This document shows, in pieces, positions 16,591-18,488 of a stretch of 64,000 nt of DNA. The stretch is taken from NCBI GenBank assembly GCA_902526005.1, contig CABZIW010000001.1, forward strand, positions 196,511 to 260,510. The letters are read 5' to 3'. Source of the DNA: an uncultured Pelagibacteraceae bacterium. GTDB taxonomy: Bacteria > Pseudomonadota > Alphaproteobacteria > Pelagibacterales > AG-422-B15. How positions within the stretch are numbered: the stretch's first letter is position 1; every line of letters starts with the position of its first letter. Made by a program: the position numbers and the translations under genes. The notes beneath the pieces were generated by a model. It was not told where the DNA came from. It ran no database searches and saw only the letters and a list, made by a program, of their open reading frames with translations.

Positions 16591-16630
16591 TATTAAAATT
16601 TAGTATTAAAAATTTAGTATTAAAAATTTT
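16591..16630. repeat. Three near-identical tandem 13-14 bp repeats TATTAAAA(A)TTTAG
   Basis: tattaaaatttag/tattaaaaatttag/tattaaaaatttt immediately after the rho stop. Confidence 0.8.
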
Positions 16631-16657: not shown

Positions 16658-17551
16658 ATGAGACGCGTCCTATTCATTATCATACTCTTTTGTTCATCCA
16701 TTGCTTTTGGAAGCGAGGTTACAAATACACTTTTGAAAAAAGTGGCTAAAACGGCTGAGGAAAAAGCTGAATTAGCAGTGAATGATATTTTTAAAAATGT
16801 TGATGTTGACCTCTCAGGCTTTTACAAAGGTAAGCCGTCATTCGGTATAAGTACCATTCTTCCTTTATATGAAAAAAATAATATCAATAATTTCTTTCAA
16901 GGTCATTTATCGACGCAAGCGGATATAGAAATATTGAACCTTGGTTTTGTTCAAAGAAGAAGTCTATTAGAAAATAAACTGATTGTTGGTTATAATTTTT
17001 TTTATGATCTTGATTTAGATAATTCTCATGAAAGATTTGGTATTGGAGCAGATATGCTAACCAGTCTTGGAGATGTACATTTAAATTATTATGACGCAAT
17101 AACTGACTATGTAGTTGTGAATGGCTTAAAGGAGTATACGCTAGATGGATATGATGCACAGATTGCATTTCCCCTTCCGTATTTACCCTACTCAAAAATT
17201 TATGCTGAAGTATTTTCATGGAATGGCATTAACAGTTCAAGAGATCTTGAAGGCGAAACATTTAGTATAAAAAATAAACTTCCTTTCGGAATGAGTTTAG
17301 AATTTGGAAAAACGAGTTTTGATCAATTGTCTCGTGACGAGGAGTTTGTGATTTTAAATATTAATCTTTTTGAATTTAAAAAAACTAAACAACCATTATC
17401 AAGTGAATTGAGAAAAATGTACTCAACCGTACCATATGAATTGTACAATTTTACTGATGTGAGTGACCGTAAGTATGAAAAGGTCAGAAGAGAAAATAAA
17501 ATAAAAAAACAAACAAACCGAACTGGAACAGTTAGAATTGTAGGATATTAA
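16658..17551 (+). CDS. Inverse autotransporter (intimin/invasin-type) beta-barrel domain protein without passenger
   Basis: Signal peptide; LNLGFVQR...GYNFFYD...HERFGIG...NYY...DGYD and linker R.YEKVRRENKI, then stop. Confidence 0.8.
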   Translation: MRRVLFIIILFCSSIAFGSEVTNTLLKKVAKTAEEKAELAVNDIFKNVDVDLSGFYKGKPSFGISTILPLYEKNNINNFFQGHLSTQADIEILNLGFVQRRSLLENKLIVGYNFFYDLDLDNSHERFGIGADMLTSLGDVHLNYYDAITDYVVVNGLKEYTLDGYDAQIAFPLPYLPYSKIYAEVFSWNGINSSRDLEGETFSIKNKLPFGMSLEFGKTSFDQLSRDEEFVILNINLFEFKKTKQPLSSELRKMYSTVPYELYNFTDVSDRKYEKVRRENKIKKQTNRTGTVRIVGY

Positions 17552-17552
17552 A

Positions 17553-18488
17553 ATGCAGAAAAAATTATTTTTCATAATATCCTTGTTAATTTTTTCAGGA
17601 ATGTTTAACGGCAAACTCTTCGCTATAAATGGATATGAAAACTGCCCTATGGTAGATGGAAAAATTGATGTATCAGAACTTGTAAATATCGTTCCTTTTT
17701 CTGGCAATTTAAGGACCTGCGATGCGCCGGTCACAAATTACATTTTAAATTTCAACAAACTTGCTGTGTGTACTTCCGATCCTAATGATTATATTTTAGG
17801 CAATTCAACAGCTGACCCGTGCTATTATCTCTGGAATACAGCTGAGGGGAATGAAGCCATTTCTGTTGGCATAGACAAACTAGGTAATGAATTTAGCTTT
17901 CCTGCCACTCTTCCACCATCAGGAACATATACTTCGGGTTATGCTGAAATTTCAGCCACAATTCCAATTTATGTGGAACTTGAATTTGACGAAGAATTGA
18001 TGTTTGGTGGCAATAGCGCAGGAACAGGCTGGAGTATACCTTCTCCATCAAAATTTATTGGTGGAGGTGATCGCAACATGTCTATGCAGGATGGTATTAA
18101 TGGAAATTTGTTTGGTTTTACAGAGGCATTTTCAGAATCACAGCCGTCATTTAATGATTATAGTTTTACATACAACTCTTTATCAACAACTGAATTTCTT
18201 AATACACGTATTAGTTACACTGCCCTATCTCATAACGGTAATTATCGTTCAGTTTTCTTACTTAATGACAGTGGTAGACTTGCAAGCACATATAGTGATG
18301 TCTCGTCATTAATTATTAAAGATGAATTTTCCACACCTATAACGATTACTGACCGAACAAGCACAGTTACCTATAAATATTCAACTGATTATGCGGCAAG
18401 AATTACAGTTGTGCCTTCAGGATCGGGCGGATGGTTTGTTACATCGATTTTATTTGGTGATACGCAATTTAGGATGGAATTTGAATAA
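17553..18488 (+). CDS. Hypothetical secreted protein
   Basis: 311 aa, signal peptide (..KLFA), 4 Cys in N-terminal third, S/T/G/aromatic-rich; 1 bp after previous gene. Confidence 0.75.
   Translation: MQKKLFFIISLLIFSGMFNGKLFAINGYENCPMVDGKIDVSELVNIVPFSGNLRTCDAPVTNYILNFNKLAVCTSDPNDYILGNSTADPCYYLWNTAEGNEAISVGIDKLGNEFSFPATLPPSGTYTSGYAEISATIPIYVELEFDEELMFGGNSAGTGWSIPSPSKFIGGGDRNMSMQDGINGNLFGFTEAFSESQPSFNDYSFTYNSLSTTEFLNTRISYTALSHNGNYRSVFLLNDSGRLASTYSDVSSLIIKDEFSTPITITDRTSTVTYKYSTDYAARITVVPSGSGGWFVTSILFGDTQFRMEFE

What the first reader, a model, noticed from the sequence alone, without database searches (positions are those of the whole stretch)
16658..18488. Candidate split (two-partner) inverse-autotransporter system: passenger-less intimin-type barrel plus separately secreted partner
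Seen: gene 1 has a signal peptide, intimin/invasin beta-domain motifs and the pore-traversing linker (RKYEKVRRENKIKKQ). It then stops after one short beta-strand-like tail (TGTVRIVGY), exactly where the Ig-like passenger would start. Gene 2 starts 1 bp later, has its own signal peptide, 4 Cys (two possible disulfides) and a beta-rich S/T/G/aromatic composition ending in an alternating strand (TQFRMEFE). The pair interrupts the conserved rho-mnmE origin block. Established: type Ve proteins normally carry barrel and passenger in one chain. Inference: the barrel exports or anchors the partner in trans, possibly by strand complementation, giving an exchangeable surface adhesin or phage-receptor module. 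This is the best candidate here for an undescribed system.
Basis: partly seen in the sequence, partly recalled or inferred. Interest (0 to 1): 0.75.

Follow-up and report, generated by a model that had tools for sequence, protein, structure and literature searches.

The report
Barrel-only inverse autotransporter with docked partner
A SAR11-type marine bacterium carries a tightly coupled gene pair, a minimal intimin-like outer-membrane barrel with no adhesin attached and a separately exported, fast-evolving protein that is predicted to clip onto the barrel's short tail, which looks like a stripped-down and swappable way to show a protein on the cell surface.

Summary
Window 16658-17551 encodes a 297-aa protein with a signal peptide, a Pfam IAT_beta barrel (E 8e-23) and an intimin-like linker. 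It ends 14 residues after the linker. One base later, 17553-18488 encodes a 311-aa signal-peptide protein with four conserved Cys and no known family or fold.

The pair is a conserved module, not a broken gene. All 82 fetched loci with a short barrel have a partner-family gene directly downstream on the same strand. These loci come from Pelagibacteraceae, Porticoccus, Cellvibrionales and Methylophilaceae. This genome holds a second, paralogous pair.

A complex prediction passed its controls (ipSAE 0.82, best control 0.00). The only barrel residues at the interface are 287-297, the tail, lying against partner strands 111-122 and 270-278.

Partners evolve faster than barrels and are swapped as cassettes. 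In two metagenome contigs the partner also carries Ig/cadherin repeats. Close relatives lack this pair between rho and apt.

The two-partner idea is already published (ZirT/ZirS; Tsai 2010; Heinz 2016). I therefore call this a new variant of a known kind, with an unnamed partner family and a proposed new docking mode. Surface exposure and the export route remain untested.

The parts
16591..16629 (+). Tandem repeat (period 14, 2.9 copies) in the 67-nt spacer between rho and gene 1. It may be a promoter or regulatory region, but its role is unknown.
   Evidence: TRF score 71. The promoter scan was no better than shuffles.
16658..17551 (+). Gene 1: passenger-less inverse-autotransporter barrel, 297 aa.
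   Evidence: ORF. (PF11924, E 8e-23). (AF2 pLDDT 72.7, pTM 0.65). (Foldseek: invasin 4e1t E 1.6e-12, TM 0.75 on the target; intimin 4e1s and 5g26).
16658..16711 (+). Signal peptide of gene 1 (aa 1-18). Cleavage after AFG is inferred.
   Evidence: Inspection of the translation. No signal-peptide predictor was run.
16712..16798 (+). Amphipathic helix of the mature N-terminus (aa 19-47), presumably periplasmic.
   Evidence: helix 2-47 in the model, at low to middling pLDDT.
16799..17365 (+). Beta-barrel strands (aa 48-236).
   Evidence: strands between residues 48 and 236..
17366..17506 (+). Short helices and the pore-traversing linker (aa 237-283). It holds R271, V276, R278 and E279, which are invariant in the 29-sequence alignment. 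In the 54-sequence alignment only V276 and R278 remain invariant.
   Evidence: conservation. (aligns with the intimin linker). (role of intimin R434 and the linker, from PMC13078405).
17507..17548 (+). C-terminal tail (aa 284-297). Residues 287-297 are the predicted donor strand that inserts into the partner.
   Evidence: the only barrel residues at the interface. (pLDDT below 50 when the barrel is folded alone). (a turn plus a 6-8-residue strand in every short barrel aligned).
17553..18488 (+). Gene 2: Sec-exported partner, 311 aa, of an unnamed family.
   Evidence: (357 representative clusters at E <= 0.001). (no PDB sequence relative at E <= 1).
17553..17624 (+). Signal peptide of gene 2 (aa 1-24, inferred). 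It is not a lipobox.
   Evidence: Inspection.
17625..17966 (+). Conserved N-terminal part of the partner. It holds the four Cys (31, 56, 73, 90) and the PPxGxYT motif. Residues 111-122 (17883-17918) contact the barrel tail in the model.
17967..18191 (+). Variable middle region (aa 139-213).
   Evidence: pLDDT below 50 in the AF2 monomer. (high entropy and low occupancy).
18192..18485 (+). C-terminal beta part of the partner. Residues 270-278 (18360-18386) form the second strand that contacts the barrel tail.

Best explanation
The two genes encode the two halves of a split type Ve (inverse autotransporter) surface-display unit.

Gene 1 is exported by Sec and folds, with BamA, into a 12-strand intimin-type barrel. 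Its linker runs through the pore. It ends in a short tail, a turn plus one beta-strand, at the outer mouth. Gene 2 is exported separately by Sec. The barrel's tail strand (residues 287-297) inserts between two strands of the partner's beta-sandwich (about 111-122 and 270-278). This completes the partner's fold and tethers it non-covalently, by donor-strand complementation.

The barrel is therefore a conserved socket. The partner is a fast-evolving, swappable and probably surface-exposed head, which in some relatives carries Ig/cadherin repeats. Its likely role is contact with the outside: adhesion, particle or nutrient binding, or a target or decoy for phages.

Shown by computation: the barrel family, the split, the strict pairing, the partner's hypervariability and the predicted tail-partner interface. 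Inferred: the outside location (from homology of the linker with intimin), the route of the partner across the outer membrane, and the function.
For: **Barrel identity.** PF11924 at E 8e-23. The model matches invasin and intimin barrels (4e1t E 1.6e-12). The linker aligns with intimin's. In the 54-barrel alignment V276 and R278 are invariant and N280 is at least 90% conserved.

**Not a broken gene.** Full-length barrel homologues are 291-311 aa (62 hits). Across 151 genomes of the order, 67 have IAT_beta. Of the 97 matches listed, 96 lie in open frames of 201-361 aa and one in a frame of 513 aa.

**Pairing.** In 82 of 82 fetched loci with a short barrel, the next same-strand ORF lies -11 to +58 nt away and matches a partner profile, A1/A5 or A3/A4. 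Eighty of these barrels are complete and two are cut by contig ends. Some loci are the same place fetched twice, leaving 69 distinct pairs. Named records include Pelagibacteraceae, Porticoccus, Cellvibrionales and Methylophilaceae. The own genome has a second, paralogous pair. The three partner sub-families are related: A3 against A4 gives probability 99.5%, while A1 against A3 or A4 gives 48-56% at E about 1e-4.

**Binding.** Complex prediction gave a score of 0.82 (runs 0.81, 0.83, 0.82) with the best of 3 controls at 0.00. That mark was reached by 116 of 157 solved complexes and 2 of 215 mismatched pairs; these counts hold only roughly because my own alignments were used. The runs agree in at least 85% of contacts and the partner's pLDDT is at least 84. 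The confident barrel contacts are residues 287-297 only. The tightest pairs are barrel 291-295 with partner 114-118 and 271-276. No solved relative of the partner exists by sequence and none was found by fold, so the pass is unlikely to come from memory of a like complex.

**Outside-facing character.** The partner is less conserved than the barrel in 87% of 2346 pairwise comparisons. L019 and L021 are 93-100% identical in DNA across the barrel gene, about 50% across the partner gene only, and 80-90% again in the next gene. In contigs L085 and L086 a passenger-less barrel is followed after 9-12 nt by a protein made of a signal peptide, five Big_9/cadherin domains and a C-terminal partner module.

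**Accessory status.** This pair is absent between rho and apt in close relatives G001 and G023.

**No type II secretion route in some carriers.** G023 (99% complete) and G041 (100% complete) each have two IAT_beta matches and no secretin match.

**RNA libraries.** Contigs from four marine or aquatic metatranscriptome runs (three studies) cover parts of both genes. One 381-nt contig bridges the junction, at 17435-17814.
Against: - No experiment bears on this. The interface is a model's own confidence, not a measurement.
- The model shows no confident contact between the partner and the barrel loops. It therefore does not say on which side of the membrane the complex sits.
- A 12-strand barrel whose pore holds its own linker leaves no obvious path for a 287-residue partner with two disulfide loops. 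The export route is unexplained.
- A periplasmic tail is conceivable. 'Backsliding' of the hairpin is discussed for intimin in PMC13078405.
- The AF2 monomer of the partner was only middling (pLDDT 62) and has no fold match.
- RNA contigs cannot prove transcription, and a contig across two genes does not show a single transcript.
- Linked genes diverge together in any case, so the correlation of identities (r = 0.86) does not show physical co-evolution.
- Signal peptides were judged by eye and by a crude hydrophobic-run rule.
Confidence: 0.6

Rival explanations
1. Periplasmic complex. The barrel is only an outer-membrane anchor. Its linker and tail stay on, or slide back to, the periplasmic side, and the partner is tethered under the outer membrane, for example as an envelope or binding protein.
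For: The complex model gives no confident partner contacts with the extracellular loops. There is no evident path through an occupied 12-strand pore. Heinz et al. 2016 proposed a periplasm-facing resting topology for ZirT-like proteins. Backsliding of the intimin hairpin is discussed in PMC13078405. Cys pairs fit folding in the periplasm.
Against: The linker residues that line the pore in intimin are conserved across the 54 barrels aligned. That would be needless if the linker were not in the pore. Cassette-like hypervariability of the partner, presence/absence among near-identical strains and the Big_9/cadherin-bearing partner variants are typical of exposed surface proteins.
Confidence: 0.17
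2. True two-partner secretion with release. The barrel is a reusable translocator and the partner is an exoprotein shed into seawater, as ZirS is by ZirT.
For: ZirS secretion into the medium depends strictly on ZirT, also in E. coli K-12 (PMC2270342, abstract and section 10). The gene order is the same and both proteins have Sec signals.
Against: The predicted interface is a strand inserted into the partner's sandwich. In the pilus systems I recall, such insertion gives very stable, non-transient binding. Shedding a 31-kDa protein is costly for a free-living ultra-oligotroph with a 1.2-Mb genome (inference). The tight coupling (1-nt spacer, overlaps of -4 and -11 nt in relatives) fits a 1:1 complex.
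Confidence: 0.12
3. No functional link, or an artefact. The genes are one frameshifted gene, or two unrelated neighbours.
For: One metatranscriptome contig (X4) carries an extra A behind 17377, in a run of seven A within gene 1. This shows that indels can occur or be mis-called at that site.
Against: The stop after the tail and the second signal peptide are conserved in 82 of 82 loci from three proteobacterial classes. Barrel length is conserved. The complex score is 0.82 against 0.00 for the controls.
Confidence: 0.03

Closest known systems
ZirT/ZirS(/ZirU) of Salmonella and the 'two-partner inverse autotransporters' of Heinz et al. 2016 (SinH/SinI, Yfr4 with Rat-like proteins)
   Same: An IAT_beta barrel protein is followed in the operon by a separately Sec-exported partner whose fate depends on the barrel. 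ZirS secretion is strictly ZirT-dependent (PMC2270342, abstract and section 10 read). The two-partner sub-family was proposed in PMC4943183 (passages read).
   Different: According to the passages read in PMC4943183, ZirT, SinH and Yfr4 keep their own IgSF passenger domains and their partners resemble those domains. Here the barrel has only a 14-residue tail. The partner belongs to an unnamed, non-Ig-annotated family. The hosts are free-living marine oligotrophs, not enteric pathogens. The predicted coupling is strand insertion, not transit past a displaced plug. NCBIfam SinH scored 33 bits against a cut-off of 999.
Intimin and invasin (classical type Ve inverse autotransporters)
   Same: The same barrel fold and linker. 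The small beta element at the end of the linker, which PMC13078405 shows to be critical for intimin, is present.
   Different: There is no covalent passenger and no LysM domain was detected. The chain stops about where the first Ig-like domain (D00) of intimin would begin. The split therefore seems to lie after the first strand of what would be the first passenger domain (inference).
Barrel-only Int/Inv proteins of alpha-proteobacteria, cyanobacteria and chlorobi (Tsai et al. 2010, PMC3008723)
   Same: This is the same class of object. The paper states that these have only the barrel. It speculates that they transport or anchor 'non-covalent passenger domains' (abstract and sections 8 and 15 read).
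   Different: That paper reports that genome context of the remaining short members gave nothing indicative of function. Here a dedicated partner family, its universal synteny and a docking model are given.
Donor-strand complementation in chaperone-usher pili (recalled from general knowledge, not from a call)
   Same: A beta-sandwich that lacks one strand is completed by a strand donated from another chain.
   Different: Here the donor is the C-terminal tail of an outer-membrane barrel, not a chaperone or a neighbouring pilin. No usher, chaperone or polymer is involved. This is an analogy of mechanism only, not homology.
Type Vb two-partner secretion (FhaC/FHA)
   Same: Two genes, with an outer-membrane barrel and a Sec-exported partner.
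   Different: The barrel here is IAT_beta, not Omp85 with POTRA domains. The partner has no Pfam match at all, so no TPS-domain family was detected.

Membership tests
Inverse autotransporter, type Ve (Pfam IAT_beta PF11924; intimin/invasin) | N-terminal Sec signal peptide | tested here: inconclusive
   The N-terminus has two Arg, a hydrophobic run and AFG before the mature part. This was judged by eye; no signal-peptide predictor was available.
Inverse autotransporter, type Ve (Pfam IAT_beta PF11924; intimin/invasin) | IAT_beta 12-strand barrel | tested here: met
   PF11924 at E 8e-23, 81.8 bits against a cut-off of 22.3. The AF2 model matches 4e1t, 5g26 and 4e1s at E 1.6e-12 to 1.7e-10, with TM 0.74-0.75 on the target.
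Inverse autotransporter, type Ve (Pfam IAT_beta PF11924; intimin/invasin) | Linker through the pore with the conserved Arg (intimin R434) and the beta-strand at its outer end | tested here: met
   This holds at the sequence level only. The profile aligns the window's linker to the intimin linker. V276 and R278 are invariant in 54 barrels. R271 is invariant only in the 29-sequence alignment and is replaced by Q or K in some barrels. The model has a strand at 284-286.
Inverse autotransporter, type Ve (Pfam IAT_beta PF11924; intimin/invasin) | C-terminal passenger of Ig-like domains in the same chain (a diagnostic feature in Heinz 2016) | tested here: not met
   The protein ends 14 residues after the linker. 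The same holds in all short barrels aligned.
Two-partner inverse autotransporter (ZirT/ZirS type) | Barrel gene followed by a gene for a Sec-exported partner | tested here: met
   82 of 82 loci.
Two-partner inverse autotransporter (ZirT/ZirS type) | Barrel protein keeps its own IgSF domains, and the partner resembles them | tested here: not met
   There is no passenger on the barrel. The partner has no Pfam family and no significant fold match.
Two-partner inverse autotransporter (ZirT/ZirS type) | Partner export depends on the barrel | not testable with these tools
   This needs a secretion or surface-exposure assay with and without the barrel.
Type Vb two-partner secretion | Omp85-type TpsB with POTRA domains, and a TPS domain on the partner | tested here: not met
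   The Pfam scan of both proteins gave only IAT_beta for gene 1 and nothing for gene 2.
Named E. coli/Salmonella short or classical inverse autotransporters (YchO/YchP, SinH, intimin; NCBIfam equivalogs) | Score above the NCBIfam cut-off | tested here: not met
   YchO/YchP scored 38.6 bits against 508, SinH 33.2 against 999, and intimin 15.8 against 1400.

The most novel reading that the evidence does not exclude
This may be a minimal, possibly ancestral, form of type V secretion. Only the first beta-strand of the passenger remains on the barrel. The rest of the passenger is supplied in trans. The partner stays incompletely folded in the periplasm, crosses the outer membrane while the barrel is assembled at BamA, and folds on the barrel's donor strand at the surface. 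A conserved socket can then carry interchangeable heads. In SAR11 and other abundant marine bacterioplankton these heads would form a hypervariable surface layer shaped by phages or grazers.
Probability: 0.35. Interest if true: 0.85.

Novelty: new variant of a known kind. Interest (0 to 1): 0.68.

Why it matters
SAR11 is among the most abundant bacterial groups in the sea, and little is known about what its cell surface carries.

This conserved socket-and-head module shows three features expected of a surface determinant that matters for phage adsorption, grazing or particle contact:
- one to three copies per genome;
- partners that are swapped as cassettes;
- presence or absence that differs between near-identical strains.

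For secretion biology it offers a very small, two-gene test case of how a type V barrel handles a non-covalent passenger. The published ZirT model left that question open. It also gives a concrete, testable docking mechanism: tail-strand insertion.

If the tail peptide alone completes the partner's fold, the pair could serve as a compact surface-display scaffold.

Tried and rejected
**Fold of the partner: not assigned.**
- The AF2 monomer with a 26-sequence alignment gave pLDDT 62.
- Foldseek against the PDB gave 0 matches at E <= 0.001.
- VIA-align over 48,161 chains gave a best Z of 4.9 (rmsd 4.0, 99 residues aligned, 9c39_K), tied with unrelated rows.
- The ESM Atlas returned only 'hypothetical protein' clusters.

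**No family name for partners.**
- Pfam scans of nine further downstream secreted proteins from the loci found no family above cut-off. One sub-threshold VERL hit was ignored.
- NCBIfam found nothing.

**Fused forms: none found.**
- The 'longer' search with A5 found nothing, which is weak evidence.
- I scanned eight of the 150 listed representative hits, the four of 647-4669 aa and four of 330-358 aa. None has IAT_beta. Three carry Big_9/cadherin or BNR domains. One, of 4669 aa, is made of SpaA repeats and is probably a spurious hit.

**Regulatory signals.** The promoter and terminator scan was no better than shuffles.

**Base composition.** It shows no island signature.

**Failed query.** The search for related loci with the broad barrel alignment A6 failed because no stretch was conserved enough. 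I repeated it with A2.

**My earlier idea, rejected.** I had thought the partner's conserved C-terminal strand is the docking element. The complex model does not support this: its contacts are at 111-122 and 270-278.

**RNA data.** Parts of the stretch have no contig cover, and depth cannot rank expression.

**Own-genome searches.** Secretin, Omp85 and TamB gave no match in this 92%-complete assembly. Omp85 is found in 29 of 31 relatives, so absence here reflects incompleteness and is not a finding.

**Earlier notes of this scan.** Nothing lay near this place or resembled this sequence.
Full report
**What is there.**
One search lists two abutting ORFs on the + strand: 16658-17551 (297 aa) and 17553-18488 (311 aa). 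Gene 1 ends with TAA at 17549-17551, one base follows, and gene 2 starts at 17553. An AGGA lies at 17542-17545, inside the last codons of gene 1.

The flanks, by my own reading of the translations (no scan was run on them), are:
- upstream: hemE-, hemH- and hemJ-like genes, then rho;
- downstream: a convergent apt-like gene and a methyltransferase-like gene, then a small ferredoxin-like gene, mnmE and mnmG.

Base composition across the pair (GC 0.29-0.38) does not differ from the flanks.

**Gene 1 is a barrel-only inverse autotransporter.**
- Pfam IAT_beta scores E 8e-23, 81.8 bits against a cut-off of 22.3.
- NCBIfam equivalogs for YchO/YchP, SinH and intimin are hit only far below their cut-offs. 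It is therefore a member of the superfamily, not of any named protein family.
- A profile of 29 relatives finds the invasin and intimin barrel chains in the PDB at 1.4e-9 and 1.6e-8. It aligns the window's linker with intimin's.
- The AF2 model has pLDDT 72.7 and pTM 0.65. It is a run of strands from 48 to 236, then short helices, the linker and a small strand at 284-286. Residues 288-297 have pLDDT below 50 when the barrel is folded alone.
- Foldseek places the model on 4e1t (E 1.6e-12, TM 0.75 on the target), 5g26 and 4e1s.
- By the alignment, the chain ends 14 residues after the point that matches the end of the intimin crystal construct. That is about where the D00 domain of intimin begins, according to PMC13078405 (passages read).

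**The truncation is the conserved state.**
- Of 62 database homologues, the full-length ones are 291-311 aa and carry PF11924.
- In a draw of 151 genomes of the same order, 67 have IAT_beta: 42 of 59 in the window's family and 24 of 91 in the sister family, G000 aside. Of the 97 matches listed, 96 lie in open frames of 201-361 aa and one in a frame of 513 aa.
- All 35 short barrels from the window and loci printed end in the same way: a [K/P]V[RK]R.N linker motif, a short strand, a Gly/Ser/Thr-rich turn and a last strand of 6-8 residues.

**Gene 2 is an unnamed exported protein.**
- It matches no Pfam or NCBIfam family.
- It has no PDB sequence relative at E <= 1, even with a 113-sequence profile.
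- The ESM Atlas offers only hypothetical-protein clusters.
- It has 32 close homologues of 275-315 aa.
- A profile search of 1.84 billion representatives gives 357 clusters at E <= 0.001 and 101 at E <= 1e-10. Most of the full-length hits are 260-330 aa.
- C31, C56, C73, C90, P121 and G124 are at least 90% conserved, and Y126 is invariant, in 113 sequences.
- The middle of the protein (139-213) is variable.
- Its N-terminus looks like a type I signal peptide, not a lipobox. This is by inspection.

**The pairing is strict.**
I collected loci with the genome search and the search for related loci. I then scanned their ORFs with HMMs built from my alignments.
- All 82 loci that hold a short barrel have a partner-profile ORF as the next ORF on the same strand, at -11 to +58 nt. 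Eighty of these barrels are complete and two are cut by a contig end.
- Several loci are the same place fetched twice, leaving 69 distinct pairs.
- One partner (L049) is only 133 aa.
- The two remaining loci, L083 and L084 (Rhizobiaceae and an alphaproteobacterial MAG), are ordinary long inverse autotransporters of 1217 and 1110 aa.
- Named records place the closest pairs in uncultured Pelagibacteraceae. More distant pairs (31-33% barrel identity) are in Porticoccus, a Cellvibrionales MAG, a Methylophilaceae genome and one 3.8-kb contig binned as Saprospiraceae.
- Partners fall into sub-families that are related. A3 against A4 gives probability 99.5% at E 3e-22. A1 against A3 or A4 gives only 48-56% at E about 1e-4, over the N-terminal part.

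This genome has a second, paralogous pair on another contig: a 295-aa barrel and a 290-aa partner, with 26-28% partner identity. It lies next to a proteorhodopsin-like gene.

**The predicted complex.**
The job used the mature barrel (19-297, 54-row alignment) and the mature partner (25-311, 113-row alignment).
- The score was 0.82 (runs 0.81, 0.83, 0.82), with the best of 3 controls at 0.00.
- The mark was reached by 116 of 157 solved complexes and 2 of 215 mismatched pairs. These counts hold only roughly because my own alignments were used.
- The runs agree in at least 85% of contacts, and the partner's pLDDT is at least 84.
- The barrel residues in confident contact are 287-297 and nothing else.
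- On the partner the contacts are 65, 67, 70, 93-94, 103, 105, 107-109, 111-122 and 270-278.
- The tightest pairs join barrel 291-295 to partner 114-118 and 271-276.

The simplest reading is that the tail strand lies between two partner strands and completes a sheet. The partner has no solved relative, so the pass is unlikely to be recall of a known complex. It remains a model. It does not say on which side of the membrane the complex sits.

**Signs that the partner faces outward.**
- Partners diverge faster than barrels. Partner identity is lower in 87% of 2346 comparisons among 69 pairs.
- L019 and L021 come from two genomes of one genus. They are 93-100% identical in DNA through the barrel gene, about 50% through the partner gene alone, and 80-90% again in the next gene. 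That is a cassette swap or intense diversification with sharp borders.
- In marine metagenome contigs L085 and L086, a passenger-less barrel of 516 or 508 aa (PF11924 E 5e-30 and 6e-33) is followed after 9-12 nt by a 743- or 760-aa protein. That protein has a signal peptide, five Big_9/cadherin-like domains and a complete partner module at its C-terminus. The partner module therefore appears to be the docking piece, and adhesin-type repeats can be hung on it.
- Pair 1 is accessory. In G001, whose rho is nearly identical to the window's, and in G023, rho is followed directly by apt. In L006 an extra gene sits between the partner and apt.
- G023 (99% complete) and G041 (100% complete) have two IAT_beta matches each but no secretin. 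Relatives have a single Omp85 (29 of 31). A type II secretion route is thus unavailable in those genomes, and BamA is the only Omp85-family insertase found in them.

**Expression.**
Contigs from four marine or aquatic metatranscriptome runs, from three studies, match parts of both genes. Six of the seven are at least 99% alike. One 381-nt contig spans 17435-17814, across the junction. Contigs from RNA libraries do not prove transcription or a single transcript.

**Mechanism, and what is inferred.**
I propose that the barrel inserts through BamA, with its linker in the pore and its tail at the outer mouth. This location is inferred from homology with intimin. The tail strand then completes and tethers the partner, as modelled.

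How the partner crosses the outer membrane is not explained by any result here. One possibility is passage during barrel assembly, with folding on the donor strand supplying direction. That is speculation.

The rivals are a periplasm-facing complex, a released exoprotein as with ZirS, and no functional link.

**Comparison with what is known.**
- Tsai et al. 2010 stated that alpha-proteobacterial Int/Inv proteins have only the barrel and might carry non-covalent passengers. They found no informative context for the remaining short members (PMC3008723; abstract and sections 8 and 15 read).
- Gal-Mor et al. 2008 showed ZirT-dependent secretion of ZirS (PMC2270342; abstract and section 10 read).
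- Heinz et al. [quoted passage not shown]
- Full-text searches were run. They found no paper that treats such pairs in SAR11 or Pelagibacter. The only two papers holding both 'inverse autotransporter' and 'strand complementation' are broad reviews, seen in the listing only.
- Two earlier notes of this scan describe the same kind of pair in other genomes and read it the same way. They are not independent evidence.

**Verdict.**
This is a new variant of a known kind. It combines a barrel-only type Ve socket, a dedicated and hypervariable partner family, and a predicted donor-strand attachment.

Noticed in passing
L001:574-2337 (= G000 contig C2, about 95858-97621, minus strand): There is a second, paralogous barrel-plus-partner pair in the same genome (295 aa and 290 aa). 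It lies between a proteorhodopsin-like gene and an NAD-kinase-like gene. This type sits at the same place in many genomes of the genus.
   Followed up: partly
window 16591-16629: A 14-nt unit (TATTAAAAATTTAG) is repeated 2.9 times in tandem in the short spacer between rho and gene 1. Its function is unknown.
   Followed up: no
window 17371-17377: One metatranscriptome contig (run X4) has an extra A behind 17377, in a run of seven A inside gene 1, which would shift the frame before the linker. It could be a strain variant, polymerase slippage or an assembly error.
   Followed up: no
L038:2414-3223 (minus strand); also a 149-aa ORF in L015: A 270-aa ORF joins the N-terminal half of an inverse-autotransporter barrel to a partner-like C-terminal half. 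It looks like a deletion remnant of a pair and lies beside an intact pair. L015 has a 149-aa ORF that hits the barrel profile, 286 nt upstream of an intact barrel gene on the same strand.
   Followed up: partly
L085:2408-6202 and L086:2423-6241: In these marine metagenome contigs the barrel has an extra N-terminal region of about 225 aa with no Pfam match. The partner carries five Big_9/cadherin-like domains ahead of the partner module.
   Followed up: partly
L006:2425-3543 (minus strand): In one relative, an extra gene lies between the partner and apt. By my reading of the translation it is agmatine-deiminase-like; it was not scanned. The rho-apt junction thus appears to be a small variable islet.
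   Followed up: no
L019:3047-3769 and L021:1-684: In the sister family, a third signal-peptide gene of about 240 aa follows the partner on the same strand. It has no Pfam match.
   Followed up: no
G000, whole genome: There is no Omp85, TamB or secretin match in this 92%-complete assembly. Of 31 genomes searched (30 relatives plus G000), 29 have exactly one Omp85 match. BamA was therefore probably not assembled here, and no second Omp85 such as TamA was seen in those genomes.
   Followed up: partly
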